The notes beneath the pieces were generated by a model, which saw only the letters and a program-made list of their open reading frames with translations, ran no database searches and had not been told where the DNA came from. This document shows positions 29,274 to 64,000 of a stretch of DNA of 64,000 nt, piece by piece. The stretch is from Lobosporangium transversale (taxonomy: Eukaryota), in contig NW_019029022.1 in the NCBI RefSeq assembly GCF_002105155.1, forward strand, positions 124,001 through 188,000. Direction: 5' to 3'. The translations under genes were made by a program, and so were the position numbers. The first letter of the stretch is position 1; each line of letters starts with the position of its first letter.

Positions 29274-29308
<35 letters not shown>

Positions 29309-30615: not shown

Positions 30616-30687
30616 TCATTTTTCCTGCGCGACTTCAAAAACCACTCATCATTCATCCATTCGTCCTTTACTCGCGAGTGCTTTCGA

Positions 30688-30694
30688 TATAAAA
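30688..30694 (+). promoter_or_regulatory. TATA box of the palindrome-borne transcription unit (mirror copy at ~36663-36669, minus strand)
   Basis: TATAAAA followed by a poly-T/pyrimidine leader and then the first splice donor. Confidence 0.55.
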
Positions 30695-30695
30695 T

Positions 30696-30740
<45 letters not shown>

Positions 30741-30953
30741 CCTTTCCTTTTCTTTTCTTTTCTTTCTTTCCCTTTTTTTCTTCTCTTCCAGTTTAGCCTC
30801 CTCGACCAACATGAAAGGTAAGCAACACTCCACAAATATTCACCCTCACTAAAGTCCTAACTCTCTCACCTTATGCTGCACTGTACTTGTTCTGACTTTT
30901 TATTTCCTGTCTATCTCTCTTTCTCTCTCTTTCACATCACTGTTAGACCACAA

Positions 30954-31642: not shown

Positions 31643-32788
31643 GTAACAGATGACACACAGTTGTGGTCGTCTAAGTATGGTAAGTCAGTAGCAGTGGCCT
31701 GTTTACTAGGCCCTATAGAGCTCGAGTCCCGGCCTTCAAGGAGATCCTCCATCCAGCAGGATCAGGATCAGGATCAGGACCAGGTGTTATCAAGGCCTGA
31801 TAACACCTCAGGTAAGTATACATGCGCATACATAGCAAAGGGCATATTAACTTGATTCTACCATTGCTTTTGTTCTCTCTGTTTAGGTGGGATCTTGGCA
31901 ACTCGGAGCTCTATAGTGTTTAGTAAATAGTTCATTGTTACTGACATCATCCTTAGATTACCCCAATTAGCGAAGCTGCACCAGGCGCCTGGCTGTAGTG
32001 TGTAGTGCATGGCGTAGAGGCGTCATGTTGTGTGACCTGTTACTTGCCGTCTGAACCAAAGGTACTCTGGTCATAGTAGGGCTTCATTGGCTAGTCGCTC
32101 GATAGACTATTGCAATGAGACCTCTGCTTGGAGAAGCGAGAGCAAGGGTCATAAGAGGAGTAGAGGACCTTGAGGCATAAAAATAGATCGAAGAGCACCA
32201 TGCTTCGAATGCGGCTAGGAGCGCAGGGCCAACAGAAAGCAGACAGCAGCCGAGGGCCGAAAGCCAATAGTCAAGAGCCAGCAGTCAGCAGTCAACACCC
32301 AACATCTAACAGCAGAAAAAAAAAAAAAAAAAAAAAAAAAAAACACGCACGAACACGAACACACACAAACATAAGAGAGAAAACCCCAAAGCAAAAAAAA
32401 AAAAAAAAAAAAAAAAGATAAAAACCGAAACTAACTCAAAAAAAAAAAACACTCAAAGTCAAAGGCAGCCTCAGCCAAAGGCATAACAGGCAGCCAAAGC
32501 CATAACAGGCAGCCTTGACCAAATCAAACACACACTGCCCCGATCAAAGCAAGCGCACGCAACCTCACTCACGCCGGCCAAAGGTATCCCAGAATAATCC
32601 AGACAACCAGAGCCAGATGGCCGAAGCCAGGTAACCAAAGCCGGAAACTGAAGCCAATCAACCGAAGGGATGCCAGATGACCGATTCCAGATGATCGAGG
32701 CCGAATAGCAGAAACCGGGCGATCGCAGCCAGTCAAGCAAAGACGGTCAACTTTAGACAGTCAACTAAAGAAAGCCAACCATAGACAA

Positions 32789-32840
32789 TCAACCAAAGCC
32801 AGTCGACCAAAGTCAGTCAACCAAAGTCAGTCAATCAAAG
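32789..32840 (+). repeat. Degenerate 14-nt tandem repeat (CAACCAAAGTCAGT-like); diverged mirror array at ~34385-34470
   Basis: caaccaaagccagt cgaccaaagtcagt caaccaaagtcagt caatcaaag. The mirror reads caaccaaagtcagt cggccgaagctaac cagccgaagtcagt... on the minus strand. Confidence 0.75.
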
Positions 32841-34139
32841 GTTACCAATGTCAATCATTCAAGGCATTACCAAAAAATGTACCTAAAAAAAAAATCAAAA
32901 TATAACTAAAGGTTACCAGGAAGCACACAATAATCCATACATATCAAGACTACTTACTTCTAAAGGCTCAAAGATCTTGCCATCCTTGGGATAGGATGCA
33001 GCTTAAAAGTGAAAGCATAGTAAACAATTAGCAATAAACATTGTTTGTTCGAAGTGTTGGTAGATGGGTATCCTTGATCATTATGATTGTAGTTTCCCCC
33101 TCAATAGAAGGCAACATAACTGTAGAAGGGCAAATAGAATAAGCTGTACTGGTTCTTGCTAGCAAGCCGCTCCGTGAAAGTAACTAGTAGTGTTGCCGTT
33201 TGGGCATATCTATGACCCTGAGGCGCAATCCAATCAAAAACATGAGTAGCTTTAGTGCTATTGGCCTCTATAATCACATGTGGGATCTCTCCCCAGGCTA
33301 TAAAATAACCATTTGGGCGGATTTTTGCACCTTTGGTCTGATTACAGCAACTTAATCAGGTAGTGCATTCCGCCTGCAAAAAGACGATGAGGAAGATGCT
33401 GATCCTATTTTTTGGGGGAGGGAAAACAATACCGTGCATTGCTCTTTTTCATTGGAAGGCATGGCTTAGCAGCTTATGTGTTTAATTGGTAAGTTGCATC
33501 CACAACTACATTGTCTCAATTTTTTCCTCAAGCAAGGCCTTTGCTCATTGACTGCGAGAATGTGCCATTTCATAGCGTTTGTTGTGTTTAGTGGGTCCGT
33601 TTAAAAAACATTCAAGATTCAATTCCCGTTATTTTGAATAATAATCAAAGAACTGGCCATCAAGAGGGGATCTCACTATAAAGATGGCAGTCTACTGAAT
33701 CCACTAAGTTGCAGAAAAAAGAAAATAAACGAGGCAAATCGGGCAATAGGAACGCGTTGATCTCATATCGCTTACACAAATATACTTTCATCAAACCCCC
33801 TCCATGTCCATACTGGACCACCACAAGCGCGCGGCTGGGTGTGGCTCGTGCTCACACAAATGTATTCACTAGCCAAATTATACTCTGCATCCGAATTAGC
33901 GAGGATGATCTCAAGAGTTCTTTTATTAAAAAGCTTTATCGATTGCCATGTCGGATATTTATTGAAAACCAGGACTGCTTGAGCCCGATGGCTATTTCCC
34001 ACTTCATGTTATACACTCCAATGATACCAACGATTCAATGTTCAACTTCTTTCCTTGGATATAGTAGTTATTGAGTAAGTTATACTTTCAATTCGGGGAG
34101 GCAACTACAGTCATAACGATCAAGAACATTTATCCATCT

Positions 34140-34924
34140 ACCAATATTTCAGACAAACAATGTTTATTGCTAATTGTTTACTATGTTGGCGCTTCCGAGC
34201 CGCACTCTATCCTAAGGATGACCAGGTTCGTAGGCAAAAGACTTTTGTTTTGTTATTTAGAGGTAGATAGTCTTTTGTGGATTATTGTTTTGGCCTTTGG
34301 GCTTCTTTGAAAATATTTTTAGTGTATCCTTGCGCAGTGCCTCGGATGATTGGCTTTGATACCTTTCAGTCGGCTGCCATTAGTTGGCTGGCTTTGGCTG
34401 AATGACTTCGGCTGGCTGGCTTCGGCCGACTGACTTCGGCTGGTTAGCTTCGGCCGACTGACTTTGGTTGTCTGGATCATTCTGGATTGCCTTTGTGGTT
34501 TGATTGATGTTGGTATGTTTGTTTTGATTGAGGCACCCTGTGTTTATTTTACCTGGCGCTCCCTTTGGTGATTTGGTTAAGGCTGAGTGTGTTTACTTTG
34601 ACTGGGGAGCTCGCGGCTACCTTGACTAGCGCTGCCCCTAGTGGTTTGATTGAGGCAGCCTGTGCTGGTTTTGATCAAGGTACTCTACTATTGGCTTTAA
34701 TTAAGGTTGCCTTTGGTTGATTTAGTTGAAGCTGCCTATGTCTGGTCTGGCTGTAGCCGCTATGCTTGATCGGGCGGAGAGCGCTGGATGAAGCTGCCTT
34801 GTATTAAGCTTAGTTGTGGAAGTCTTCGGTTGACTATGACTTTGGCGTTGGCATTGGTGTTGGCTTTGGCTTTGGCTTTGGCTTTTTTTGATTTTGTTTT
34901 TGTTTTTTGAGTTAATTCTTTTTT

Positions 34925-34962
<38 letters not shown>

Positions 34963-35007
34963 TTGGGGTTTTCTCTCTTATGTTTGTGTGTGTTCGTGTT
35001 CGTGCGT

Positions 35008-35039
<32 letters not shown>

Positions 35040-36615
35040 CTGCTGTTAGATGTTGGGTGTTGACTGCTGACTGCTGGCTCTTGACTATTGGCTTTCGGCC
35101 CTCGGCTGCTGTCTGCTTTCTGTTGGCCCTGCGCTCCTAGCCGCATTCGAAGCATGGTGCTCTTCGATCTATTTTTATGCCTCAAGGTCCTCTACTCCTC
35201 TTATGACCCTTGCTCTCGCTTCTCCAAGCAGAGGTCTCATTGCAATAGTCTATCGAGCGACTAGCCAATGAAGCCCTACTATGACCAGAGTACCTTTGGT
35301 TCAGACGGCAAGTAACAGGTCACACAACATGACGCCTCTACGCCATGCACTACACACTACAGCCAGGCGCCTGGTGCAGCTTCGCTAATTGGGGTAATCT
35401 AAGGATGATGTCAGTAACAATGAACTATTTACTAAACACTATAGAGCTCCGAGTTGCCAAGATCCCACCTAAACAGAGAGAACAAAAGCAATGGTAGAAT
35501 CAAGTTAATATGCCCTTTGCTATGTATGCGCATGTATACTTACCTGAGGTGTTATCAGGCCTTGATAACACCTGGTCCTGATCCTGATCCTGATCCTGCT
35601 GGATGGAGGATCTCCTTGAAGGCCGGGACTCGAGCTCTATAGGGCCTAGTAAACAGGCCACTGCTACTGACTTACCATACTTAGACGACCACAACTGTGT
35701 GTCATCTGTTACCTACGCGAAATCCCCAAGGGCACTCGGATCAAAGTAAGGTCCAGAGGCTAGAGGCTCTCTAGAGCTACTACAATGATCCCCCTTCAAG
35801 GAGTTGCGAGGGCTTGACGGAAGGATCGGCGAAGGGGATCGGCGAAGGGGATTGGCGGGCAGGCGGGCAGGCGGGAGGAGGGCCCGGCGGGCTAGAGTCC
35901 AAGCGGATGAGCCTCTAAGGGAAGAAGACAAAAAAAAAAACACGCGTGGTTAGAATATTTGGTAATCAGAGCACAGCAGAGTACAGACAGAAAATCACGA
36001 CATGTGCTTCTAAAAGAAATTGTACTTACAGCTCCGCTTTCGCCCCATTTCGATAAGCACTGCATGGGCCCATTGCAGTCTTTGGGACAATCGTCGCCAT
36101 GAGCCTAGGGCTAGTGGCCCCTATTACAGCTAGGAGGAAGACGAAGAAAAAAAAAAAAAAAAAAAAAAAAGAACGAAGATAGCTTTGTAAGTATGCTAAG
36201 CTTATTCGATGGTAGGGACAATCACAAGCAAGACAAAGCGAAGCCATGCATAAACTATATACTTACTTGATGACAGCGGCGAGGGCTCTTCTGTGAATGA
36301 CCAGGTGAGGCTTTTTTTGCTTTTTCTGGTCTGTAGTTTGCTGTTGAGTTGTTCAGAGTGTTTCCTAGTTCTGCTCTGTATCTGGCTAGAAGTTTGTATC
36401 ATTTGTGGTCTAACAGTGATGTGAAAGAGAGAGAAAGAGAGATAGACAGGAAATAAAAAGTCAGAACAAGTACAGTGCAGCATAAGGTGAGAGAGTTAGG
36501 ACTTTAGTGAGGGTGAATATTTGTGGAGTGTTGCTTACCTTTCATGTTGGTCGAGGAGGCTAAACTGGAAGAGAAGAAAAAAAGGGAAAGAAAGAAAAGA
36601 AAAGAAAAGGAAAGG

Positions 36616-36640
<25 letters not shown>
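34140..36640 (-). ncRNA. Putative five-exon structured transcript, copy 2 (convergent with copy 1)
   Basis: Mirror of copy 1 up to the poly-A tract near 34927-34959. Its 3' part is diverged but keeps the 33-bp AATAAA island (34153-34185). Confidence 0.6.
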
Positions 36641-36661
<21 letters not shown>

Positions 36662-37932
36662 ATTTTATATCGAAAGCACTCGCGAGTAAAGGACGAATGG
36701 ATGAATGATGAGTGGTTTTTGAAGTCGCGCAGGAAAAATGATAAGTGAAACCAATTTGCGATTTCAGAGTATTGACTGAATAATGAATATATCAAGCATC
36801 TTGCTTTTTGTACGCTCTAGAGCTCTAGAGCGGCCAAAAAAAAAAAAAGAAAAAAAGAAAAAAAGCGGCATAGCGGAATTTGAAAATGGATAATATGCGC
36901 ACTACATGATATCATCCGTCATTTCTCATATGCATACAAGAGAGAAAAAGAGAAAGTACTCATGGGTGGAGGTGGGGAATAGCATTGCTAACATTCCGTC
37001 TTCAAGATCTGCAAGATCATCTAAACAACAATATTAGGCTACCCACAAACAATCAGAGCACGAGCCACATTGCTCTCTGCATGCTAAGGTGGTGCAACAA
37101 AGAAATATCTATTTAGACAGTGAGATTCAGAGCACAAGCACATTAACACTCGCATGCTATCATTTTCAACAACATTCAGCTCGAGTATCTATTATTAATC
37201 CTTCGTAATGGAGTTCACCAGACACTACCAGTCAAGCTTGCTTCTTTATTCTCTCTCTTCACTCCCAATAGCAGATGGAATAGACAGACTATCGCAGGAA
37301 CTGTACCGTAGCAGCTTTTGTCCAAACAGACCTTTTTTTTTTTGTTTTTCCAGAACGCGGTAAAAGTAAGACACATCACTCGTGTGCTTTTTATTGGTCG
37401 ACATACAAATATTAATTCGCTTTCAAATAAAATAAAATAAAATGCACAGCCTAATCAGCTGTCACATGTCATATGTTTATATTTTATTACTTTACATGAA
37501 AATAATAAAAAAGGACTGCGAGTGAGTTGAGAATTGGCATATGTCGTATTCTGGGAAAAGGCATTAGGATACAACCTGCCGAAACACAGTTCTCGATTGT
37601 CTATCACATCTCTTGTGAGGAGTGAAGAGAGGAAATAGAAGAAGAGAATAAAAATGAAAGCTTGATTGGTAGTACCTAATGAGCCCTATTACCAAGAATC
37701 AAAAAGTACTAGAGCTTAATGTTAATGAAGTAAGAGTATGCGAATGCTAATATGGTTGTGCCCTGAAACTCATTTTTTTACTTTCAGCCGCATCACATTG
37801 CTCGCTGTCTAAATGGATCTTTTTTTCTTTGTTGCGCCACCCCACCATGTAGAGCGGCTAAACAGTTCGAGGGCAGTAGGCTTGTATTTTAGTTATTGCT
37901 GTTGTTTATACAGTCTCGCAAAGCTTGAAGAT
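34927..37932 (-). repeat. Right outer arm of large inverted repeat (~3.0 kb)
   Basis: Reverse complement of 29425-32416. Outer junction ATCTTCAAGC / GCTTGAAGAT is sharp. Confidence 0.97.
35713..36402 (-). CDS. Putative 145-aa orphan protein, copy 2
   Basis: Mirror of 30954-31642 with the same splice sites. Confidence 0.4.
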
Positions 37933-38270
37933 TGTACGCGAACAAGTGCCTACACAAGCAAGGCGTCATTTAATATGGCGACAACGCATCCCAAGATCCC
38001 AAATGAGCATACGCCTGAACTGGCCCTTTGTAGCTTAGAATGTAGCTAGGTAAACTCGATAGCTAGATAGCAAACAATTTCTCAATAAAGATTAAAAAGT
38101 GTTTGATTCAAATAGCAAGTGACGCCTCTCTTAATGCATCTTCTGTTGCGCTGTGTCTGTGCTTTGGAACGATAATGATCAAAAGGCAAGCTCAGGCGAA
38201 TTCGCAAAGGGCAGCCGCTTCTCTGAATGTCTGTTCCTATGCGAAGCAGTCTGTATCCTTTGAGACCATT
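37932..38270 (+). repeat. 339-bp direct repeat, copy 1
   Basis: Matches 39345-39683 with about 10 substitutions counted by eye (~97%). Begins exactly where the palindrome arm ends. Confidence 0.95.
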
Positions 38271-51404: not shown

Positions 51405-53244
51405 TTAGTTGCATTCATCCTCTCCAGGGACAGCAATGCACAGAAAACCAACGCGTAAAGCTTCCTCACTCTCATTCCTTTGACGTATCTGATAGGCCCA
51501 TGCTTCAGATCTGTCCCACAACTCCATCACATCCTTGCCTTCCCTAGCAACATGTTCTGCTTCGACAGTGCACTGAGGTGTCAGGACTATAGCTTCTTTA
51601 GCGGTGCTATGGTGCTTGTAGTCATCCAAGGGATGTGTGATCCTGGCTGGGAAAAGATCCACCCCATCCTTTGTCTTTGTTCCAGTAGTCTCTCCATACG
51701 CAAATTGGATCCACATCGTCTGTACTCGCTCCATGAATCGTTTTTCATCCTCATTCAAGACTTTCTCGAGTGCATAGTCTGGTCCGAACACATACACAAG
51801 ATCAAGACCATGATGCGCACCCCAGCCACGGCCAACAGCATCCACTGCCTCAATAGAGCGTTCAAAATAATACTGAAATAACTTGAACCTTTCTTCTCCC
51901 TCCTTTGAACCCTCGCGCAACGACTGTGTTGATGGTTGGGAGGAGTCCAAATCTTTGCGCTTGGAGAGCACTCGCAAGACAGAGAAAACTGGGTAGGCAA
52001 ACACACAATGATCCAACACTTGCTCAGATACTTTTTTAGCATCTAAATCAGTCTTTGGCTTCCCATATACCTTTTCCCACAATTGTTGGCTGACTTCATC
52101 AGGAGGACAGAACCTCTCGTACAACCTTGGCAGCCCTTTTAGTGTTGTGGGGCCCATGGCCGGTAGAAGCGAGCTCGCCTCATTTAACATGCATCCAGCC
52201 ATGACAGCTTTGACCCCTTGGTCGAACATTTCAGCCTTTTGGGCTCGTATGTAAATATCTTTAGGAACCATCAGTCCGTCCGCATAAGGTGTGACCAGTC
52301 GAACCCTCTTAGAAGATACAGCTAAAGCCAGCTCCATGCTTGGCACTTTTTTCAGTAGCTCAAGCTTCTCTTTCCCGGACAACTCCTTTGGAATATTAAA
52401 ATGATCGACCAGAAAATCAAAGTAAAGCTTTCCTTCCACATGGGGCCGAATGGCTGTAAGAGGGGTAAAAGCGCCAGAATGCATGATCGCTCGATGGAAG
52501 AGGCCATGATGCTGAGGGATTAACATGTGGTAATTGACGCATACAGCACCAGCTGATTGACCCATAGCCGTGATATTGGAGGGATCACCACCAAAAGCTG
52601 CAATGTTGTTGTGGACCCATTCAAACGCAAGACGTTGGTCTTGAAGTCCCCAGTTCCCGGTAGCCCTCTCGTAATCAGTCTTGAGATTTGGATCCGACTC
52701 AATATCTGCAATAAGCTCTGGACAAGAGAAGAACCCGTGGAAGTTAAGTCGATAGTTGGGAACAACCACAATCACAGGACGCCCTAGCTTTGTTGCCTGG
52801 CGGACCAGATTACTGCCATCTAAAATATCCGACTCTTTCTTTTTTTAGTAACTGCTCTCTTCTGCTTCCATTATTATGAGAAGGAAAGGTTCTTATTTTT
52901 AAATGCTTATCAAATCTTACCATAGAGCTCCATAACATTGGCGCCATCACAGGATCCGCCCCCATGAATGAATACAACAACGGCTGCGCCTTTGGATTTT
53001 ACTTCTGCTGTCTCGACCACCTTCTTCTTTAGTGTGTCCTCATGCACAAAAACGTTGAGGTTTAGACAATGTTTCTCATCAAACTCGGTGGTTTCATCGT
53101 CAAAGTCGACAGGTGAAAAAGTATTGATGTGCCTTGAAATGCGCCCTTCTGCTTTGGGTTGAGGACAGACTGGTCTAAAGTGAGCAGAAAAAAAAGAAAC
53201 AAGAGACATTCATTGATATGACTGTATTGAAAGCAAAAAAAGAA

Positions 53245-53278
<34 letters not shown>

Positions 53279-53566
53279 TCGACGACAAATTACAATATTG
53301 CCTGAAGAGGAGTCTTATTGATAGAAATATGTGTATATCTTCATGGTGTCCTTATTCTTGTTGCACTTTGGACACACATACCCTAATTTGGTCGCATCAC
53401 GAACACCGGTCCATGGCTCAGGCTTAACAGCAGGCCGCCATCTCTCCTGAACAACACCGAAGGGAACATTCAAGAAGCGAACAACATCTTTGTTTGGATC
53501 CAATGCACCTTGAATGATACCTTGGTTTGCAATATGAATTTGAGTTGTGTCTGATGGCTGACTCAT
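51405..53566 (-). CDS. Type-B carboxylesterase, paralog 1, 3 exons
   Basis: FLNVPFG, CLNLNVF, FIHGGG, NYRLNFHGF, NWGLQDQRLAFEWV, nucleophile GQSAG, candidate triad Glu (LNE) and His (AHHGLDL). Confidence 0.92.
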
Positions 53567-54197
53567 ATTGGAACAAATAAAAAAAATAAAATTGTGCAAG
53601 AGTGAGAAAAGGATACAGAGCAAAAAGTGTGATGTTCATGATTTTTATTTTTTTTTCCTTTGAGCCTTCCAGGCTTCTGGACCCCTTCTGCCCCTTCAGT
53701 GACACTGATGGCTGTAAATTGTTACGGCAGTGAGACTGATGGGTGTAGATTATCGTGGGAATATTTTCTCCCCAGACTGGGCCACGTGTTACAGGTGTAG
53801 AACTCAAGATTTGGATCATGAGAAATATTCGGTCCACAACAGATGACCAACATTGCTACTCGCGCGCCTTGTAACTAAAAACCATGCTACAATTAAGAAA
53901 TTTGTCAAATCGTCCAGCTTCCCTGTCTGTTTACCCTCTCTGATATTTTTATTTATTTATTTTCTTATTTATTTATTTATTTTACTTTCAATTTCGCTTA
54001 TTGCATTTTGGACTCATTGAGAACTCGAAATATAGAGTTCGTCCAAAGGTAAGTAAAAAAAGAAAACAAAACACTAGCACTCTGAAGGATAGGGAAATGT
54101 GGAAGAAGAAGTTCAGGAAGCTGAGGTTCTTAGGTCGAGACATGTTATCTCCTATATTGCAAAGAAAAGGACAAATAGATTAATAAAGCATTCACAT

Positions 54198-54561
54198 TGT
54201 TGGTTTTAGTTTTAGTCACGTGTAGAGGGTTCGCCACCAACTATTTAACGAGCAACAGCTCAGGAAAATCTGGCTCCTTGTTCCTTATTTTTACACAAGA
54301 GCCATTTGAGTACTGACTGTTCTCGTCCAGGTAAAGAGCCCTCACAACGTTCGTCGTTAGTAGCCATAGATCATTAAAGGTTCCTTATTTTTACACAAGA
54401 GCCATTTGAGTACTGACTGTTCTCGTCCAGTCTTTGAGTAGTGTGTGTGTTCTTTTATTGTGTTAGAATTATTTATCTATCTGCAGCTGGAAGTGACCGG
54501 CTTCATAATCCACCAAAACGACCTAAATCTCCTACCACATCTGCCCCTAAATTTTGCAACA
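54198..54561 (+). repeat. 5' LTR
   Basis: Matches 60763-61126; contains an internal ~51-bp duplication (54280-54330, 54380-54430). Confidence 0.97.
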
Positions 54562-54568
54562 ATATTTC

Positions 54569-54580
54569 TGGTGATCTATG
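54569..54580 (+). promoter_or_regulatory. Primer binding site candidate TGGTGATCTATG
   Basis: Lies 7 nt after the 5' LTR, starts with TGG, and is also complementary to LTR 54365-54376. Confidence 0.6.
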
Positions 54581-57541
54581 CAGGGGGTGGCAGCTACAAT
54601 GTCTTCCAATTTATCGATTCTTCTTACCATGATCCCGAAGTGGCCGTCGGCAGAGGCTGAGGGTCTAACCGCCGCGACATGGATCAGCGATTTTGGAGGT
54701 GTTATCGAAGGAGAAACCCTGAGCAACAAGTTGATGTTCGTCGAGAGGCAGGCGACAGGCAAGATCCAACGCTGGATCAGGCGTTGGAGGATGACAAACA
54801 AGACGAATGGTGCCTGGAGCCAGTTCGTCAGCGATTTCATCATGGAGGCCTCTACCCCTAGAAGCCAGGATGTCACCCTGGACGAGTTGCATTCTATTAA
54901 GCAAGGAGAAGATGAGACGACAGCCAACTATGTACAACGAATGAAACTTACCATGGAACTCCTCGACCCAGAGTCTGGTTGCGACGCACAGCCGTACAAG
55001 ATCCCAACAGCCACCGAGCGTCTACTGGCGTACAGATTTTGCAAGGGTTTGAGGCAAGACCATCCTTTCAAGGTCAAGAACAAAGAAGCGCCTGCGACCT
55101 TGAAGGAAACCTTCGAATCAGTGACACAATTGGTTGAAGGAAATCGTTGGGGCATTGACACCACTGAGAGCCGTGTCATAGCTCGCAGCAACGCTGAGCA
55201 TGCTGCACCAATCGAGACGAATGTTCTGCTTGGATCGACCCTAGTGCCGAGGACGCACTACTCTGGCTTCCTAGCGGACTTCAAAGACGACAAAGAGAAA
55301 GTTAATCAATTAAGCGTAGACGAATTAACAGACATGTTCGGAGCCTGGACCCTTGCTGCCGAGGAGCGAACTCCGGAGGCGCGAATCGCTCAGACTATCT
55401 CAAGAATGAGCCCGGCTGTAGCGAGGCGAGTGTTTGGTTCCTCTGAATTGGCCAAGCATATTAGAGTGGAGGCTAGACCTAATGCCGTGCTCCAACCCGC
55501 CGAAGTTCGAAGTCAGCAGGCTATCCCTATGGCCCGTAGAACCTGCCATAAATGTAATCAAGAGGGGCACCTCTTGTCGTTCTGCCCATTGGTGGAATGC
55601 TTCCGATGTGGCGAGCGAGGCCATACTTCGAAGGTTTGCACTAAGGAACAAGGAAGCCCCGCCACAGGCGCCAATAGCGTCCCATTGGCCACTCAAACTA
55701 ACTCCTCGCTAAGAGTGCAAAGTTTAGAAATCTCCGCCACTAATGTCGCCCAATCATTTATCACGACTAAGCCACAGCGATTAAATTCGACAGGTGCCCA
55801 GCGACGTCGCAGTGAGAGGACAGGCACTCCTGCAGGTCCATCGTCTCAACGAAGAGAGGAAACGAGAGGCACTACTCCACCTGTCCGAGGAATGCAGTGG
55901 GAGGCTGAGGCATCCACTAGTAGTGCGCAACCTTCTGGGGACCCCCACTTCCAGACAGTGACTTTTGATGACAGAGCGGTCGACGGGCGAGAGAATAATG
56001 TTGCAGAAGCTCCAAATGCGACGCCAAAGCGTACCAGGAAGCGTGTCATTCCTGATCCAGTGTTCGTTGATGCGGTCGAAGGATTGAATTTTGATTTGGC
56101 CACTCACTCCAAGTACCGTGGAAAGATGGCAGTGCAACTCAAGGCAGCTGTTACCGAGGCCTGGGCCCGCCATGCCCCTCCAAGAAGAAGCAAGCCTAAG
56201 AGGAGTCAGTCAGCAATAGCTATGGCCAGGAACGTTCAAGGTGGCAAAGGTGATGTCACGACCGTCACCGCCTTGGGACGAGACTTCAACAACGCCGTTA
56301 TTGATCCAGGCAATGACCATACTATGATGGGCCTACATGTGGCAAACGCACTCGGACTGAAGTTAGAGCCTGCTACTCGTGCGGTGCTATTGGCCCATGG
56401 GTCCTTCCAGAAGCTTGCGGGCCGCACAAGACCTATCGATATTTATGTGTCCGGGATCCCCTTGAGAATGTCGATGGGAGTGATCGACTGTAAGGGCACA
56501 TATGACTTCCTCCTTGGCGATGACTGGCTCAAGGCGCTGAAAGCCAAGGCTGATTGGAGCAACGGTATCGTGTACTACGTGGAGAGTGAGGGAAGGACTA
56601 TCACCCTTGGTGGCGGTCTAAATGTTCGCGCCTCAACCCCTCAGCCTACGACATCAACGTACTTGTCTGATGAGAACGATGAGTATGATGATGAGTACGA
56701 CGACTATGAGGATGACGAATCAATCTACGAGACGGAAGAATCCGATGCTGATGCAGGGTACAGAGCCTTGAGAGTGAAGACAATAGAGGTCGGTGACCCG
56801 GATCTGCAGGCGATGACCGCAAGAGTGTTCTCTAGCAAGATACAGTGCGAGAATGACGATGCTCGCGTAAAAAGGCAGCCGTTCGCGGTTGACGGAGTCA
56901 ACGTGGACATCAACCCAAATTTGTCCAATGAGCAGTACGGACAGATTGTGGAGTTACTTGAAAGGAATAAGGACAGGCTGACTACCAACCTTGAGGACCT
57001 CGAAGTGACGTCTATTTTAGAACATGAGATCAACATTCAACCAGGCGCCAAGCCAGTGTACGTAGGATGGTGCAAACGGTACTCGCCGAAGGAGCTTGAC
57101 TTCCTTAAGAAGAGTGTTGATGATGAGCTTAAGGCAGGAAAAATCATAGAGATGGAGAGCGAGTGGTGCGCGCCGCTGAGTCTTGCTCCTAAGAAAGACG
57201 GATCCTTGCGCAAGTGCGTCGCATACATAGGCCTAAATAAGGTTACCGAAAGGGAGAGCTGGCCACTGCCAAACATCGAGGAAATACTTGACAACTTAGG
57301 CGGATTCGAGTACTACAGTAGCCTGGACGGATTTCAAGGTTATTACGTGATTGGCATCAAAAAAGAGCATGTCAAGTATCTTGGCTTCCGTACGCCTTTT
57401 GGGACGTTTGCATACAAGGTAATGCCATTTGGGCTCAAGAACGCGCCACATACCTTCAGTCGCTTCGTTAGAAAGTGTACTCAGACCTTATCGGAAGAGT
57501 GCTTGAGGCGTACATGGACGATGTGTGCGTGCGCACGATGA
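54578..57541 (+). CDS. Gag (two CCHC knuckles)-protease-N-terminal RT polyprotein
   Basis: CHKCNQEGHLLSFC, CFRCGERGHTSKVC; protease AVIDPG...DFLLGDDWL; RT PKKDGSLRKCV, SLDGFQGYY, VMPFGLKNAP. Confidence 0.92.
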   Translation: MQGVAATMSSNLSILLTMIPKWPSAEAEGLTAATWISDFGGVIEGETLSNKLMFVERQATGKIQRWIRRWRMTNKTNGAWSQFVSDFIMEASTPRSQDVTLDELHSIKQGEDETTANYVQRMKLTMELLDPESGCDAQPYKIPTATERLLAYRFCKGLRQDHPFKVKNKEAPATLKETFESVTQLVEGNRWGIDTTESRVIARSNAEHAAPIETNVLLGSTLVPRTHYSGFLADFKDDKEKVNQLSVDELTDMFGAWTLAAEERTPEARIAQTISRMSPAVARRVFGSSELAKHIRVEARPNAVLQPAEVRSQQAIPMARRTCHKCNQEGHLLSFCPLVECFRCGERGHTSKVCTKEQGSPATGANSVPLATQTNSSLRVQSLEISATNVAQSFITTKPQRLNSTGAQRRRSERTGTPAGPSSQRREETRGTTPPVRGMQWEAEASTSSAQPSGDPHFQTVTFDDRAVDGRENNVAEAPNATPKRTRKRVIPDPVFVDAVEGLNFDLATHSKYRGKMAVQLKAAVTEAWARHAPPRRSKPKRSQSAIAMARNVQGGKGDVTTVTALGRDFNNAVIDPGNDHTMMGLHVANALGLKLEPATRAVLLAHGSFQKLAGRTRPIDIYVSGIPLRMSMGVIDCKGTYDFLLGDDWLKALKAKADWSNGIVYYVESEGRTITLGGGLNVRASTPQPTTSTYLSDENDEYDDEYDDYEDDESIYETEESDADAGYRALRVKTIEVGDPDLQAMTARVFSSKIQCENDDARVKRQPFAVDGVNVDINPNLSNEQYGQIVELLERNKDRLTTNLEDLEVTSILEHEINIQPGAKPVYVGWCKRYSPKELDFLKKSVDDELKAGKIIEMESEWCAPLSLAPKKDGSLRKCVAYIGLNKVTERESWPLPNIEEILDNLGGFEYYSSLDGFQGYYVIGIKKEHVKYLGFRTPFGTFAYKVMPFGLKNAPHTFSRFVRKCTQTLSEECLRRTWTMCACAR

Positions 57542-60141
57542 CCTGGGGAGAGCATTTGAGAGCCCTCGATCATACGTTTGCGGCAGCTCGCGCAGGAGGA
57601 GTCAAGTACAAGACTAGTAAGCTCCATTTCGGGTATGACAAGGTGAAGTTTACTGGCCACGTGGTCGGCAAAGATGGAATTGAGGTCATGCCAGACAAAG
57701 TTGACAAGGTCAAGAATTTCACCCCATTACGTAGCAAGGAAGATGTACGTGCATTCTTGGGCTTGACGGGCTACTATCGAAGGTTCGTCGAAAGCTACGC
57801 TCAGATTGCAGAGCCGCTGACGAGGCTCCTCAAGAAAGGTGCAAGCTTCACCATGGGTCCTGAACAGGTGGCCGCAGTAAAGGGTCTCAAAGCCAAGTTA
57901 ATTCAAGCTCCGGTACTTAAGGCTCCAGATTTCGAGAAGGATTGGGTGGTCTCGTGTGACGCCTGCAAATACGCTATGGGCGCAGTGCTAGAACAAGAAG
58001 ATGAGGAGGGTAAGTTGAGACCGGTCTACTTTTACTCGAAGACCTTTCAAGGAGCCGAACGCAACTACTCTACCTTTGAGCAAGAGTGCCTCGCCGTTGT
58101 CATAGCCGTCAAGAAGTTTCGGCCTTACATCCTGGGTAGGTCCGTTGTCGTTTACACAGACCATGCGCCACTCAAATGGTTGTTTTCCAAGACTGATCTG
58201 ACTGGTCGACCTGCGCGGTGGCAGATGATTCTGTCGGAATTCGAGCTGGTCATTAAGACCAAACCAGGTACGAAGAACGGCAATGCAGACGGGATGAGTC
58301 GCATTATGTCGGAAGGAATAGCCACGGATGACATCGATGACGAGGTGCCAGAGTGTCTGAGCCGAAGGGCAGAATCCACAGGAGAAAAGTGGCTGGCGAG
58401 CCAATGGTACGCGAACTTCTACATGTACCTAGCCGAGATGAGACTGGAGTTAGAAGACAAAGTTGAAATGAGGAGGATCAAGAGACAGGCATACAGGTTT
58501 CGACTGACGAAGGAAGGTGACCTACTGTATAGAGATGCCGACAACAGAGAGAAGAGGTGCGTAGTTGAGGATGAAGTCGAGGGTGTGCTGAAGGAGGCAC
58601 ACGACAAGGGCGGTCACTATGGAGCAGAGTCTACCCTAGCAACAGTTCGTGACGTGTGTTGGTGGCCAACGATGAGACGGGATGTATTCCACTGGGTCAA
58701 GTCTTGCGGCCGTTGCCAGCAATTTGGAAGTCGAGTGAAACATAACAGGTTGCATCCTACGGTCTCCGAGTTCCCATTTGAAGTTCTCTTCGTTGACTTG
58801 ATTGAGAACTTAGTCGAAACGCCTAGGGGGATGACCACCATAGTCGTCTTCACAGATTCCTTCACCAAGTGGACTGAAGCACATGCAGTGGCCAACAAAG
58901 GCGCGCAAGGCGTCCTAGCTGTTCTATTTATGAAGATTATCTGTCGGTTCGGGCTCCCTGTTATGATTAGATCGGATGGAGGCCCCGCATTTCGTAACGA
59001 ATTCAAGACTTTCTGTGACCTCTGGGGGATCAAGCACGTCACTGGTTCGACAAGGCATCCGCAAAGTCAGGGACAGGTCGAGGCGACAAATAAGCTTATC
59101 GAGGAGCGACTGAGGAGAGTACTGCCAGCTGGATCTAAGGATTGGGATGCATTCCTACCGAAAGCAGTATTCGACGTGAATTGTCGAGTCGTTAGGAGCA
59201 CAGGAGTGTCGCCAATGGAAGCACTTATGGGCTACACAGGACAGTCAGCGTTACGGCGACTGTTCGCGGACGACAAGTTCCTCGTTTCAGCAGAGGCACC
59301 GGAAGAGAACGATGTAGTCCTAGAAGAAAGCATGGCGAGATTTATCGTAAGAAGAGAGGGAATCCGTGAGTATGCATACTCATGCAAGCTTAATGCCAAT
59401 GACAGGATGAAACGTTACTATGATCGACGTGTTCGCCCACAATCGTTCGAAGTAGGATCAAGGGTTTACATGTTCAATTTGGATTTCGTCACAGGCTTTG
59501 GACGCAAGCTGGAGCCGCGTTGGTTAGGTCCATTTGAAGTAGTCTGGGCGAATGAAAAGGGATCATATGGGATCAAGACGGGTCGAACGCATTATGGCAC
59601 AAAGGATGGGGTAGAAACAATTAATGGAGACTTCCTCAAGCTCGCAACTCAAAGGCAACGATTATGGGAAGATGATTTTATTGAGAACCTACAGAGAGCT
59701 ACTGAGAAGAATCCCCACTACGCCGACACCGAACAACCTCTCGCGCCAGATCAATTACACCAGCCAAGTCTGGGTCGGGGGCGGGAGGACACAGCAAACG
59801 AAGGCACTCCAATCCAATCTCCACATCCCTTGTCGCCAAGGACAGGTCAAGCTCAATCTCGTGACGCTCCTCAGGCGCAAGTTGCACCTTCCGTGAACGA
59901 AGCCTCTCGCGAAGACGCGACTGGTCAGCCAAGCCTCTGGAGAATGCCACCTCGCCGTGAAGAAGATACTTCGCCCGTACGCGTTTCTCAATTGGCTCGT
60001 CTATGTCTTGAAAGGCCTCAGCTGACCGCTTATTTAGCTCTCGAGCGGGGGGGGGAACTGTCTGGGACTGAGGAGATTCTGGAGAAGACTTCTCCGCTGC
60101 AAATGGCGAAACAGAGGAAGGGCCAACCTCGTGGTCAGTAA
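57475..60141 (+). CDS. Remainder of Pol (RT YMDD, RNase H, integrase), joined to the upstream ORF by a frameshift near 57470
   Basis: AYMDDV; FLGLTGYYRRFV; CDACKYAMGAVL; TDHAPL; integrase H..H..CGRC, VD..SDGG..QVE, GPFEV. Confidence 0.92.
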   Translation: MYSDLIGRVLEAYMDDVCVRTMTWGEHLRALDHTFAAARAGGVKYKTSKLHFGYDKVKFTGHVVGKDGIEVMPDKVDKVKNFTPLRSKEDVRAFLGLTGYYRRFVESYAQIAEPLTRLLKKGASFTMGPEQVAAVKGLKAKLIQAPVLKAPDFEKDWVVSCDACKYAMGAVLEQEDEEGKLRPVYFYSKTFQGAERNYSTFEQECLAVVIAVKKFRPYILGRSVVVYTDHAPLKWLFSKTDLTGRPARWQMILSEFELVIKTKPGTKNGNADGMSRIMSEGIATDDIDDEVPECLSRRAESTGEKWLASQWYANFYMYLAEMRLELEDKVEMRRIKRQAYRFRLTKEGDLLYRDADNREKRCVVEDEVEGVLKEAHDKGGHYGAESTLATVRDVCWWPTMRRDVFHWVKSCGRCQQFGSRVKHNRLHPTVSEFPFEVLFVDLIENLVETPRGMTTIVVFTDSFTKWTEAHAVANKGAQGVLAVLFMKIICRFGLPVMIRSDGGPAFRNEFKTFCDLWGIKHVTGSTRHPQSQGQVEATNKLIEERLRRVLPAGSKDWDAFLPKAVFDVNCRVVRSTGVSPMEALMGYTGQSALRRLFADDKFLVSAEAPEENDVVLEESMARFIVRREGIREYAYSCKLNANDRMKRYYDRRVRPQSFEVGSRVYMFNLDFVTGFGRKLEPRWLGPFEVVWANEKGSYGIKTGRTHYGTKDGVETINGDFLKLATQRQRLWEDDFIENLQRATEKNPHYADTEQPLAPDQLHQPSLGRGREDTANEGTPIQSPHPLSPRTGQAQSRDAPQAQVAPSVNEASREDATGQPSLWRMPPRREEDTSPVRVSQLARLCLERPQLTAYLALERGGELSGTEEILEKTSPLQMAKQRKGQPRGQ

Positions 60142-60415
60142 GGGCAACCACCTCAGGAGAAGCAGAAGAAGGGGGAGTGACAACGACGGCAGGAGCAGGA
60201 ACAACGGCAGGAGTAGAAGAAGAAGCAGAAGCAGGAGGAGTGGTAGGGGTCGAAGGAGTGATAGGAGAGTGAGAAGTGGCAGCAGGACGCGACTCTGGAG
60301 ACGTGCCCAAAGACAGACTTAAGCTCTTGTCCGAAGAGGGAAGCATTGTCTTGGTGGAAGTGGTTGGTCTTGGGCAAGGAGGAACCTCGTCTTTCTTAAT
60401 AACAGTGCGGGCCAT
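59699..60415 (-). CDS. Antisense extra ORF of the retrotransposon (238 aa), unknown function
   Basis: ATG at 60415 after a poly-T leader; S/P/T-rich N-half and charged helical C-half; AATAAA on the minus strand at 59677-59682, just after the stop. Confidence 0.65.
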   Translation of the reverse strand: MARTVIKKDEVPPCPRPTTSTKTMLPSSDKSLSLSLGTSPESRPAATSHSPITPSTPTTPPASASSSTPAVVPAPAVVVTPPSSASPEVVALTDHEVGPSSVSPFAAEKSSPESPQSQTVPPPARELNKRSAEAFQDIDEPIEKRVRAKYLLHGEVAFSRGLADQSRLRERLRSRKVQLAPEERHEIELDLSLATRDVEIGLECLRLLCPPAPDPDLAGVIDLAREVVRCRRSGDSSQ

Positions 60416-60762
60416 GATGACGATGAAGTAGTTCAAGCAGGGCAAGGAGGAAGGAGTTGCGAATGAAAAAAAAGAAAAAAAAAAAAAAAAAAAAAGGGAA
60501 TGGAGGAATGAACCAACATTTATGTCCATGGCAACATCATCATGTGGAAGTAATGGCGTGATCACGGATCAAAATGATTGGCCGAAGAAAGAAAATTTTC
60601 CTTGGTCGATGCCAAGGCGAACCAAAGGGTGACAAGAACAATGATGCAATGACCAAAATGCGGGGTAGCAAGAGTCAAGGTGGTAGAAGCGCAAACAGCA
60701 CAATGAGTTTCTTTCTTTTTGAGCTGCGGCTTGGCGGAGCCGAACTTCGCAGCTGGTGGGGG

Positions 60763-61126
60763 TGTTGGTTTTAGTTTTAGTCACGTGTAGAGGGTTCGCC
60801 ACCAACTATTTAACGAGCAACAGCTCAGGAAAATCTGGCTCCTTGTTCCTTATTTTTACACAAGAGCCATTTGAGTACTGACTGTTCTCGTCCAGGTAAA
60901 GAGCCCTCACAACGTTCGTCGTTAGTAGCCATAGATCATTAAAGGTTCCTTATTTTTACACAAGAGCCATTTGAGTACTGACTGTTCTCGTCCAGTCTTT
61001 GAGTAGTGTGTGTGTTCTTTTATTGTGTTAGAATTATTTATCTATCTGCAGCTGGAAGTGACCGGCTTCATAATCCACCAAAACGACCTAAATCTCCTAC
61101 CACATCTGCCCCTAAATTTTGCAACA
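60763..61126 (+). repeat. 3' LTR
   Basis: Preceded by PPT GGTGGGGG (60755-60762); matches the 5' LTR. Confidence 0.97.
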
Positions 61127-61671
61127 ACATCAGTACCCAAAATTCTGTACCTAGATTTTTAGTACAGTAAAGCTTTATAATTGTCCGGAAGGGTCTGAGA
61201 GTGCCTTGTCCCGATATTCAAAAAGTTCATGTTGCGCTCAGACCAGCATTGCAGAGGAGAGCACGAAGATCCCGATGCGTGGTACTAACTAAACATTGGC
61301 CCGAACAAATCCTATGTAAAGTAAAGTTGAATATCTTTTTGTTCAAACAATGGCCTTTCAAAAAAAAAAAAAAAAAAATGGAGAGAAAGGCTTGTCTCGT
61401 TGACAGCCATCTCCCTCGCAATATGAACTAACACATGAACTAGCTTTCTGGCATTTTGGGTACAGAGCGCTTTACTAGATACAGTGTATTAGGATAAATA
61501 AGATATTTCTTTGACCTCTTTCATTAACAGCCCTGAAGCCCTTTATATATCTGCAGCGGAAGTACTCCTATGGAAGATTTGATAAGAGGCAATTAAGGAA
61601 GTATCCTTCTTCAAAATCGCTTTAAGTATTATAAAACACGTCCTTGTCCTCTGGCAGCTTGTGGCCAGTTT

Positions 61672-63755
61672 TCAGCTCCACTCCTTCTCTCCAGGGGCAG
61701 CAATTCCCAGGAAACCAACGCGTAAAGCTTTCACACTGTCATTCTTTCCATGTGTCTCATACACCCACTTCTCAGATCTTTCCCACAACTCCATCACATC
61801 CTTGCCTTCCCTAGCAACATGTTCTGCTTCGACAGTGCACTGAGGTGTCAGGACTATAGCTTCTTTAGCGGTGCTATGGTGCTTGTAGTCATCCAAGGGA
61901 TGTGTGATCCTGGCTGGGAAAAGATCCACCCCATCCTTTGTCTTTGTTCCAGTAGTCTCTCCATACGCAAATTGGATCCACATCGTCTGTACTCGCTCCA
62001 TGAATCGTTTTTCATCCTCATTCAAGACTTTCTCGAGTGCATAGTCTGGTCCGAACACATACACAAGATCAAGACCATGATGCGCACCCCAGCCACGGCC
62101 AACAGCATCCACTGCCTCAATAGAGCGTTCAAAATAATACTGAAATAACTTGAACCTTTCTTCTCCCTCCTTTGAACCCTCGCGCAACGGCTGTGTTGAT
62201 GGTTGGGAGGACCTGTCCAGGTCTTTGCGCTTGGAGAGTGCTCGTAGGATAGAAAAAGTAGGAAAGGTGAAGTGGTAATCCTGCAATACTCGTGCACACA
62301 TTCGCTTTGCATCCGAGTCGGTCTTTGGTTTTCCATACACCTTTTCCCACAGCTGTCGGCTGGTTTCATCAGGGGGACAGAATTTTTCGTACAGTCTCGG
62401 TAACCCCTCTACTGTTTCTACCCCAAGGGCTGATACGAACATAATCATCTCGTGCAATGTGGCTCCAATCATGACAGCTCTGACACCTTGGTCGAACATA
62501 TCGGTTTTATGAATCCGTAAGCGTACGTCTTCAGGGATCATCACTCCATCCACATAGGGTGCGAACATTCGAATCTTCGCAGAAGATGCGATTTGTCCCA
62601 ACTCTTTACCGGGCACTTTTTTCAGTAGCTCAAGCTTCTCTTTCCCAGATAGCTCCTTAGGGATATTAAAGTGATTGACCAGATAATCGAAATATATTTT
62701 CCCTTCCACATGAGGCCGGATAGCTGCAAGGGTAGTCATAGCACCGGAATGCATAATTGCCCGGTGAAAGAGACCATGATGCTGAGGAGTCAACGTATGA
62801 CAATTGATGCTTATAGCACCAGCTGATTGACCCATAGCCGTGATATTGGAGGGATCACCACCAAAAGCTGCAATGTTGTTGTGGACCCATTCAAACGCAA
62901 GACGTTGGTCTTGAAGTCCCCAGTTCCCGGTAGCCCTCTCGTAATCAGTCTTGAGATTTGGATCCGACTCAATATCTGCAATAAGCTCTGGACAAGAGAA
63001 GAACCCGTGGAAGTTAAGTCGATAGTTGGGAACAACCACAATCACAGGACGCCCTAGCTTTGTTGCCTGGCGGACCAGATTACTGCCATCTAAAATAGCC
63101 GACTCTTTTATTTAATAACTGCTTTCTTCCCCCTTTCTTTCACTCATTCATTCATTCTTTCTCTGATCCCTTAATGTGAGAAGGAAAGATTATAATTTTA
63201 AATGCATATCAAATCTTACCATAGAGCTCCATAACATTGGCGCCATCACTAAATCCACCTCCATGAATATACACAATGACAGCTACACCTTTGCCCTTCG
63301 CTTGTGCTGCCTCGGTTACTTCCTTTTTCAGTGTATCCTCATGCACAAAAACGTTGAGGTTCAGACAGTTCTTTTCATCAAACTTCGTAGTCTCGTCGTC
63401 AAAGTCGATAAGTGAATAGGAATTAATCACTCTTGAAAAACGCACTTCCCCTTTTGGTTGAGGACAGACAGGCCTAAGGAGAAGAACAGGAAACCCATAC
63501 AGAAGTTCATTGGTATGCATTTCTTTTTTCTTTTATTTTCTTTTCTTTTATTTTTATTTTTTGGATCCATATACCCCAATTTGGTCGCATCACGAACACC
63601 GGTCCATGGCTCAGGCTTAACAGCAGGCCGCCACCTCTCATGAACGACACCGAAGGGAACATTCAAGAAGCGAACAACATCTTTGTTTGGATCCAATGCA
63701 CCTTGGATAACACCTTGGTTTGCAATGTGAATCTGAGTTGTGTCTGATGGCTCAT
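61672..63755 (-). CDS. Type-B carboxylesterase, paralog 2; homologous ATG is out of frame (possible recent pseudogene)
   Basis: Same exon structure and motifs as paralog 1 (YIHGGGF, GQSAG, AHHGLDL). Start reads ATGAG-CCATCA versus ATGAGTCAGCCATCA in paralog 1, a 4-bp deletion. Confidence 0.8.
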
Positions 63756-64000
63756 ATTGGAAAAAAAAAAAAAAAAAAAAAAAAAAGTAGAGGAAAAAGG
63801 GAACGGAAGTAGGATATAACTTGAAAAGAAAGAAAAGAAAGAAAGAGATGGAGTGAGAGAAAGAGAGGATAGGGTAGGAAGGGCATCTTTTTCTACGAGC
63901 CCCGCAGTAAGGAATTTTCTCTTAAGGTCATTTGCTTTATGAACCCATCTTGCCTGAAACTATCGGCCTTGGATCCAGAGCTTGAGTGCACAGTCATTCT

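What the first reader, a model, noticed from the sequence alone, without database searches (positions are those of the whole stretch)
59677..60500. Gypsy element carries an antisense gene overlapping the end of pol, with its own leader and poly(A) signal
Seen: a 238-aa minus-strand ORF (60415-59699) preceded by a host-like poly-T leader and followed within ~20 nt by AATAAA. About 440 nt are open on both strands, and the pol tail there is low-complexity with no recognisable chromodomain. The C-half looks helical and basic (IEKRVRAK, RLRERLRSRK). Established: antisense extra ORFs exist in some plant Ty3/Gypsy lineages and HTLV-1 (HBZ); I know of no characterised equivalent in early-diverging fungi. 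Inference: an accessory regulator or anti-silencing factor.
Basis: partly seen in the sequence, partly recalled or inferred. Interest (0 to 1): 0.7.

Follow-up and report, generated by a model that had tools for sequence, protein, structure and literature searches.

The report
Backwards extra gene overlapping retrotransposon polymerase
A young fungal jumping gene carries, on its opposite strand and overlapping the end of its polymerase gene, a 238-codon reading frame with no known relatives; the element makes spliced opposite-strand RNA, and the frame likely encodes a nuclear protein that would tune the element's own activity, a kind of extra gene already known from plants and the grey-mould fungus.

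Summary
The anatomy is confirmed. A young Ty3/Gypsy element (identical 364-nt LTRs, 4-bp TSD) carries a 238-codon minus-strand ORF (60415-59699) overlapping pol by 443 nt, with a T-tract 59 nt upstream and AATAAA 16 nt downstream. One RNA run holds a contig with two minus-strand GT-AG introns cut out of RT/RNaseH, absent from DNA runs, so antisense transcription of the element is real. An unspliced contig covers the ORF, but its strand is only inferred. With the pol tail held fixed, the antisense product is more helical and charged than chance and carries an NLS-like motif. AlphaFold gives a confident helical hairpin; the pol tail looks disordered. A 65%-identical relative stops pol right after integrase and has no such module, so it is a lineage-specific feature. 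No homologues were found, so dN/dS could not be run, and all copies are near-identical. Use of the AATAAA is unproven: RNA runs past it. The kind is known (maize Grande gene23, Retand, Botrytis brtn, HTLV-1 HBZ), and this scan noted fungal cases on other DNA. New here are the unrelated protein, the true overlap with pol and the long spliced antisense RNA. Function is inferred only.

The parts
54198..54561 (+). 5' LTR, 364 nt, TGTTG...CAACA; preceded by TSD ACAT (54194-54197)
   Evidence: identical to 3' LTR; flanks ATTCACAT / ACATCAGT
54569..54586 (+). candidate primer-binding site starting TGG, 7 nt after the LTR
   Evidence: sequence; no tRNA match tested
54602..60141 (+). gag-pol (gag, zinc knuckles, protease, RT, RNaseH, integrase, Tf2-like SH3). 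One base is missing near 57471 in this copy; five runs show an extra A there, giving one 1846-codon frame in the family
57323..57453 (-). antisense intron C, 131 nt, GTATGT...TAATAAC...CAG, inside RT
   Evidence: joint in RNA contig of X5, absent in X1, X2, X4, X6, X8
57988..58073 (-). antisense intron B, 86 nt, GTAGAG...pyrimidine tract...TAG, inside RNaseH
   Evidence: joint in RNA contig of X5, absent in the DNA runs
58429..58525 (-). possible antisense intron A, 97 nt, GTAGGT...CTAAC...TAG (inferred, no contig bridges it)
   Evidence: the two X5 contigs end at 58428 and 58523, which fit these borders with a shared 3-nt word
59659..60141 (+). 160-codon pol tail beyond the point where relative L001 stops; predicted disordered, no Pfam domain
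59677..59682 (-). AATAAA 16 nt after the antisense stop; use as poly(A) signal not shown
   Evidence: X5 contig runs through it
59699..60415 (-). antisense ORF, 238 aa: S/T/P/A-rich N-half (78 of 124 residues, 11 S/T-P motifs), charged helical C-half
59975..60031 (-). bipartite NLS-like motif, residues 129-147 (KR-x13-KRVR)
   Evidence: pattern match, seen in 1 of 600 null proteins; untested
59792..59992 (-). predicted antiparallel helical hairpin, residues 142-174 and 181-208, pLDDT 81-96
60466..60495 (-). T-tract upstream of the antisense ATG; candidate promoter or 5' leader element
   Evidence: sequence; start site not mapped
60754..60762 (+). polypurine tract-like TGGTGGGGG
   Evidence: sequence
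60763..61126 (+). 3' LTR, followed by TSD ACAT (61127-61130)

Best explanation
This young, non-chromoviral Ty3/Gypsy element has a 238-codon antisense frame between integrase and the 3' LTR and is transcribed and spliced in antisense; the frame is likely a real accessory gene whose product is predicted to be a nuclear protein with a disordered N-half and a helical-hairpin C-half, and it most likely acts, together with its RNA, to damp and time the element's own expression. Shown: the ORF, the overlap, spliced minus-strand RNA over RT/RNaseH, an RNA contig over the ORF, no such module in a 65%-identical relative. Inferred: transcription starts near the T-tract inside the element; the ORF RNA is antisense and continuous with the spliced RNA; part of it reads through the AATAAA across gag-pol and is spliced at cryptic sites on the back of pol; the protein is made and enters the nucleus; it binds a host transcription or chromatin factor through the hairpin, as HBZ does through its zipper. 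The pol tail is most likely a secondary read-through: pol lost its stop when the module arrived and now runs over the back of the accessory gene, perhaps kept open by weak selection.
For: Two CT..AC joints in one X5 contig, none in five other runs; both have canonical minus-strand donor and acceptor; a random skip fits GTA..YAG in 0.14% of cases; none of 7 plus-strand donor-like sites is spliced. X5 has no cover on the host control stretch 61286-64000 that DNA run X4 covers, so X5 behaves as RNA. X5 contig 58523-60414 spans the ORF except its first base. No stop or frameshift in the ORF in X1, X2, X4, X5, X6; only A46V and S28S. With the pol tail fixed, 600 open-frame null proteins rarely match the real one: helix propensity 1 of 600, charged fraction 0 of 600, NLS-like motif 1 of 600. 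AlphaFold single-sequence pLDDT 75.9 for the antisense C-half against 51.2 for the pol tail. With the ORF's own codon usage the tail's low hydrophobicity needs no selection of its own. L001 ends pol at the integrase end and reaches a polypurine run and an LTR-like TGTT about 70 nt later. Precedents: Grande gene23 has its own upstream promoter and a nuclear product; brtn in Boty; HBZ down-regulates HTLV-1 (PMC7264820, PMC10186651).
Against: No homologue by sequence or fold, so no dN/dS and no conservation. Family copies are near-identical, so an intact ORF says little. The RNA evidence is one run of assembled contigs: strand over the ORF, start, end and level are not shown, and no contig bridges 58428-58523. 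A sense RNA primed at the plus-strand A-tract could also give the ORF contig. Translation is not shown. The pol frame also stays open more than expected (0.4-2.5%), so the tail may be under selection too. The tested protein features were picked after seeing the protein. Atlas recognition score 1715 is below the 2300 that most known families reach. A helical hairpin is a common, uninformative fold. The direction of the effect (damping) rests on analogy only.
Confidence: 0.55

Rival explanations
1. The antisense RNA itself is the regulator (transcriptional interference or double-stranded RNA against the genomic RNA, as for Drosophila micropia), and the ORF is incidental or secondary.
For: The spliced antisense contig spans 54563-58428, nearly all of gag-pol, and its modelled spliced form holds no ORF longer than 130 codons besides the 238-aa one. 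Micropia makes non-coding antisense RNAs (PMC7264820).
Against: ORF length (0.3%), helical, charged and NLS-like features, good start context and the only internal AATAAA right behind the stop are not needed for a non-coding RNA.
Confidence: 0.17
2. The protein is an anti-silencing or activating factor that protects the element and raises transposition.
For: The family is young with identical LTRs; run X8, which reads as bisulfite-converted, shows 181 of 181 cytosines converted in 8 pieces, CpG included.
Against: No domain or fold links it to chromatin enzymes or readers. Mucoromycota mostly have little 5mC (PMC11258239 passages), so no methylation needs no explanation. At two RT/RNaseH sites the assembled RNA path is the spliced antisense one, not the genomic RNA.
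Confidence: 0.12
3. The module is a captured host gene or a nested fragment that came with its own promoter and terminator and is carried as a passenger with no role in transposition.
For: Host-like T-tract and AATAAA; absent from relative L001; T-tracts precede host ATGs such as the neighbouring esterase gene.
Against: No paralogue in the window and no hit in the protein collection, which does hold at least one protein of this host. A 146-codon open pol read-through is unlikely for a fresh insertion.
Confidence: 0.1
4. The pol tail is the selected product (a disordered integrase extension for targeting or nuclear import), and the antisense ORF is its shadow.
For: The pol frame has 0 stops in the overlap where 3-6 are expected, and 8 in the rest of the ORF span.
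Against: 92 codons of the ORF lie outside pol and are open; the same register has 45 stops in 741 codons over the pol core; the antisense product is the structured one.
Confidence: 0.06

Closest known systems
Antisense additional ORFs between pol and 3' LTR (aORF-3R) of plant Ty3/Gypsy elements: maize Grande gene23, rice RIRE2, Retand/TRP28
   Same: Position and orientation; non-chromoviral host element; candidate promoter inside the element; predicted nuclear product; function unknown (PMC7264820, PMC11963269).
   Different: No TRP28 (PF04195) or SMC-like hit; the pol-LTR spacer is about 620 nt instead of 2.9-6.6 kb; the ORF overlaps pol by 443 nt (the word 'overlap' does not occur in PMC11963269); fungal host.
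brtn of Boty-like Ty3/Gypsy elements in Botrytis cinerea and Sclerotinia
   Same: Fungal Gypsy with an antisense extra gene (PMC7264820; PMC4227169 and bioRxiv 2021.04.13.439636 passages).
   Different: Boty has a chromodomain (PMC4227169); this element has none and its integrase falls outside the chromodomain-bearing hits. Sequence similarity to brtn was not tested directly.
HTLV-1 HBZ and HIV-1 ASP
   Same: Antisense gene in a retroelement, spliced antisense RNA, basic region plus helical dimer-type domain (HBZ), true overlap with a sense gene (ASP over env) (PMC10186651).
   Different: Those start in the 3' LTR; HBZ is a bZIP, here the model is an antiparallel hairpin; no sequence or fold link.
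Drosophila micropia antisense RNAs
   Same: [quoted passage not shown]
   Different: Micropia RNAs are non-coding; here a long ORF lies at the likely 5' end.
Antisense Zn2Cys6-like or Cys-rich genes in fungal Gypsy elements noted earlier in this scan
   Same: Same position and strand; small protein with a helical part.
   Different: This protein has four scattered cysteines (14, 204, 209, 230), no cluster, no intron in the ORF, and overlaps pol.

Membership tests
Ty3/Gypsy LTR retrotransposon (Metaviridae) | Two LTRs with TG...CA ends and a target-site duplication | tested here: met
   364-nt identical LTRs, TSD ACAT
Ty3/Gypsy LTR retrotransposon (Metaviridae) | Domain order gag-PR-RT-RH-IN | tested here: met
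   Pfam order
Chromovirus | Chromodomain at the integrase C-terminus | tested here: not met
   No PF00385 at E<=1 in pol or E<=10 in the tail; integrase outside the 4-row chromodomain group, weakly resolved tree
Antisense additional ORF (aORF-3R) class | ORF antisense to gag-pol, between pol and the 3' LTR | tested here: met
   60415-59699; 274 nt lie beyond pol, 443 nt overlap it
Antisense additional ORF (aORF-3R) class | Present and intact in most copies of the family | tested here: met
   Majority contigs of 5 of 5 unconverted runs carry it intact; copies are near-identical and contigs drop rare variants
Antisense additional ORF (aORF-3R) class | Conserved like the other element proteins across diverged copies | not testable with these tools
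   No diverged homologue found
Antisense additional ORF (aORF-3R) class | Transcribed in antisense from its own promoter | tested here: inconclusive
   Antisense strand shown by introns over RT/RNaseH; strand and start over the ORF not shown by contigs
Antisense additional ORF (aORF-3R) class | Nuclear product | not testable with these tools
   NLS-like pattern only
Retand TRP28 genes | Transposase_28 domain PF04195 | tested here: not met
   No Pfam hit at E<=1 or E<=10 for the C-half
HBZ-like bZIP proteins | Basic region followed by one continuous leucine zipper | tested here: inconclusive
   No bZIP Pfam hit; model is a hairpin; fold searches give only generic hairpins
Boty brtn family | Sequence homology to brtn | not tested
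   No brtn sequence was fetched; general searches gave no hit

The most novel reading that the evidence does not exclude
A fungal retrotransposon has recently gained an orphan antisense gene that is overprinted with pol: one 443-nt stretch encodes a folded nuclear regulator on one strand and a selected, disordered integrase extension on the other, while the long spliced antisense RNA shuts down gag-pol. That would be a retrovirus-like latency switch (HBZ/ASP type) evolved independently in a fungal LTR element.
Probability: 0.2. Interest if true: 0.75.

Novelty: new variant of a known kind. Interest (0 to 1): 0.5.

Why it matters
The function of antisense extra genes in LTR retrotransposons is an open question (PMC7264820, PMC11963269). 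Here is a compact, recently active, expressed case in a cultured fungus with a close relative that lacks the gene, which makes a clean with/without test possible. A true two-strand overlap with pol would also be a rare example of gene overprinting in a eukaryotic transposon, and the spliced antisense RNA shows that RNA-seq counts over such elements can be mostly antisense.

Tried and rejected
No whole genome was held, so copies could not be compared one by one. Homology searches for the antisense protein gave nothing: Pfam, 5.8-billion-protein search whole (0 of 2926 candidates) and C-half (0 of 267; only proteins of 130-417 aa were searched), ESM Atlas, exact look-up, viral contigs, earlier scan notes. 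The HMMER search of 1.84 billion representatives never ran, so distant relatives remain open. No dimer prediction was obtained: no verdict. Fold searches: no Foldseek match at E<=0.001 in PDB or BFVD; VIA best Z 8.7, rmsd 1.8, 67 aligned, among unrelated hairpins; ING3/ING5 and ESCRT-III rows rejected as generic. Related elements: 0 in viral contigs, 0 in prokaryote contigs, 2 of 28 candidate stretches in metagenomes; L002 breaks off in RT/RNaseH and says nothing on the 3' end. No run was on record as RNA; X5 was a guess that I then tested. Holes in X5 cover at 60415-60762 and 58429-58522 prove nothing (records are filtered), so neither the start site nor intron A is claimed as shown. Contig depths of X5 (350 over 58523-60414, 27 over gag-pol) and of X4 (60 on the element, 8-10 on most flank pieces) are not used as measures of expression or copy number. 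Read-through from the neighbouring minus-strand esterase gene was considered; no X5 contig lies on it, which is no proof. A histone-H3-tail mimic (N-terminus MART) was considered: only three residues match the recalled H3 tail, and the paper search listed nothing on point; rejected. My first test suggesting selection for a hydrophilic pol tail (0 of 400) vanished with the ORF's own codon usage. The donor list was written after seeing the introns, so its minus-strand hits are partly circular; 2 of 9 listed minus sites are shown spliced. Rfam: 0 hits on the element. A search for 'thymine blocks' found no paper holding that term among the 10 listed.
Full report
Element. The finding lies in a full-length Ty3/Gypsy element at 54198-61126. 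The LTRs are 364 nt, identical, TGTTG...CAACA, flanked by the 4-bp duplication ACAT, so the insertion is recent. Pfam gives gag, zinc knuckles, protease, RT, RNaseH, integrase and a weak Tf2-like SH3, and no chromodomain. The window copy has a frameshift near 57471; runs X1, X2, X4, X5 and X6 show an extra A there, which gives one 1846-codon gag-pol in the family. The host is a fungus by intron-rich genes and a phosphoglycerate dehydrogenase whose best solved relatives are 'dehydrogenase 2' chains at 332 bits against 255 or less for the rest (that these chains are the yeast enzyme is recalled). 'Early-diverging' is my impression and was not tested. No genome was held.

Observation. The minus-strand ORF 60415-59699 encodes 238 aa and overlaps pol by 443 nt. 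A T21 run ends 59 nt before the ATG (context ATC-ATG-G). AATAAA starts 16 nt after the stop and is the only one between the LTRs on either strand; 3 of 10 long host frames have one within 200 nt of their stop. An ATG ORF this long arose in 0.3% of 2000 Markov resamplings. The same antisense register has 45 stops in 741 codons over the pol core, so it is not a generally open shadow frame.

Which strand is the gene? In this register antisense codon position 2 falls on the pol wobble base. Holding the pol tail fixed, the antisense frame stays open in 0.4-1.8% of trials. Among 600 open null proteins the real one is extreme for helix propensity (1 of 600 as low), charged residues (0 of 600) and a bipartite NLS-like motif (1 of 600), and mildly so for hydrophobic moment (about 4.5%); leucine content is ordinary. 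These features were chosen after seeing the protein. AlphaFold on the last 119 residues alone gives mean pLDDT 75.9 with a hairpin at residues 142-174 and 181-208; the pol tail region gives 51.2 and mostly coil. The reverse test first suggested a specially hydrophilic tail (0 of 400), but this disappeared when the ORF's own codon usage was kept. What remains is that the pol frame has no stop in the overlap where 3-6 are expected (P 0.004-0.025 for the shuffles, 0.007-0.015 for resampling, lower still with N-half preferences). So the antisense frame looks like the primary gene, and the tail like a read-through that is open by a 1-in-50 to 1-in-250 chance or by weak selection.

Relatives. The only close relatives came from metagenome contigs (2 of 28 candidates). 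L001 is 65% identical in RNaseH-integrase, pairs with the window element at 100/100 support in an otherwise poorly resolved tree of 13 rows, ends pol at the position of residue 729 and has about 60 nt, a G-run and an LTR-like TGTT after its stop. It has no room for the module. With one relative and no root, gain in this lineage and loss in L001 cannot be told apart; gain is my inference. The antisense protein has no hit anywhere searched and no specific fold match. The most sensitive search did not run.

Copies. Seven of 8 listed runs hold the element (4 studies, one organism label); I laid 6 of the 8. In X1, X2, X4, X5 and X6 the ORF has no stop or indel; the only differences listed in it are A46V and S28S (one search did not show 267 rows, mostly from X8 and one diverged contig). 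LTR ends joined to several flanks show more insertions. Because the copies are near-identical, intactness is not evidence of selection, and dN/dS cannot be computed.

Transcription. Run X5, a guessed RNA run, has no cover on host stretch 61286-64000 that DNA run X4 covers. One X5 contig (3677 nt, 54563-58428) skips 131 nt at 57323-57453 and 86 nt at 57988-58073; both skips read CT..AC on plus, and none of X1, X2, X4, X6, X8 shows them. On the minus strand they are GTATGT...CAG and GTAGAG...TAG introns; a random skip fits GTA..YAG in 0.14% of cases. None of 7 plus-strand donor-like sites is spliced. The element is therefore transcribed in antisense across gag-pol, and at these two sites the spliced form is the one that was assembled. 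A second contig runs 58523-60414, unspliced, over integrase, the AATAAA and the ORF except its first base. The gap between the two contigs fits a third intron, GTAGGT...CTAAC...TAG at 58429-58525, but nothing bridges it. Contigs cannot give strand, start, end or level; I infer, and do not show, that the ORF RNA is antisense and starts near the T-tract. The AATAAA is not an absolute terminator if the two contigs are one transcription unit. This is one run of one study.

Chromatin. X8 carries only C>T or G>A changes, and in 8 listed pieces every C or every G is changed (181 of 181, CpG included). I read it as bisulfite data with no 5mC on the majority path, in gag, RT, the ORF and the leader. 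Mucoromycota generally have little 5mC (PMC11258239, passages), so this neither supports nor excludes anti-silencing.

Mechanism. Most likely the module is an accessory gene with its own internal promoter. Its protein would enter the nucleus through residues 129-147, bind a partner through the hairpin and be tuned by phosphorylation of the S/T-P-rich N-half (11 motifs); all of this is inferred. I favour a damping role, because the element's antisense RNA covers the whole of gag-pol and the best-studied analogue, HBZ, lowers sense expression; protein and RNA may act together, as PMC7264820 proposes. Odds: about 0.75 that the ORF is a translated gene, 0.55 for the statement as a whole.

Known kinds. 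[quoted passage not shown] Retand ORFs mostly carry TRP28 in 2.9-6.6-kb spacers (PMC11963269, part 1 of 5 and passages). brtn was seen only in passages (bioRxiv 2021.04.13.439636; PMC4227169); Zhao 2011, Gomez-Orte 2013 and Lankenau 1994 were seen only as citations. HBZ and ASP: PMC10186651 passages. No supplements were read; they could hold overlapping cases. Searches for a case in early-diverging fungi found 0 papers, and none of 13 titles listed is on point; subscription papers are not covered. Earlier notes of this scan report Cys-rich antisense genes in fungal elements of other genomes (unchecked AI notes, which gave me the brtn lead).

Verdict. A real, likely expressed antisense accessory gene of a known kind, with three differences from the cases I read: an orphan protein, a 443-nt two-strand overlap with pol, and a long spliced antisense RNA over gag-pol. 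New variant of a known kind; interest 0.5.

Noticed in passing
window 29425-32424 and 34928-37932: About 3 kb inverted repeat, 97-100% complementary in four pieces, around a 2.5-kb spacer, with no credible ORF (3 frames >=120 aa in 28500-41000, one being Sdh5); a further direct repeat at 37932/39345 follows. Could be a foldback element, an inverted duplication or an assembly artefact.
   Followed up: partly
window 51405-53635 and 61672-63766: The element sits between two tandem minus-strand carboxylesterase genes (about 91% identical over a 300-nt reference stretch).
   Followed up: partly
window 57471: This copy lacks one base in RT that runs X1, X2, X4, X5 and X6 show; either a copy-specific frameshift or an assembly error.
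   Followed up: partly
window 54280-54330 and 54380-54430 (and the same in the 3' LTR): Each LTR holds a perfect 51-nt internal direct repeat 100 nt apart, plus a minus-strand AATAAA at 54459-54454 that could end the long antisense RNA.
   Followed up: no
window 54563-55652 joined to 57064-57161 (runs X1, X2): An older, about 82% identical, internally deleted relative of the element exists in the same organism; it gives no view of the 3' end.
   Followed up: partly
window 55621-58133, 60191-60762 (run X8): Run X8 shows only C>T or G>A changes, 181 of 181 sites in 8 pieces: reads as bisulfite sequencing with no 5mC on this element's majority path.
   Followed up: yes
window 60763-61132 (runs X4, X5): LTR ends are joined to several different flanks in DNA and RNA contigs, so further insertions or solo LTRs exist and some lie in transcripts.
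   Followed up: no
window 59692-59687 minus: A donor-like GTAGGT lies 6 nt after the antisense stop, upstream of the AATAAA; not spliced in the X5 contig.
   Followed up: partly
L001 1470-1472; L002 1-1182: L001 has one in-frame stop in integrase; L002 is a truncated copy of the same sister family next to a large host gene without Pfam hit.
   Followed up: partly
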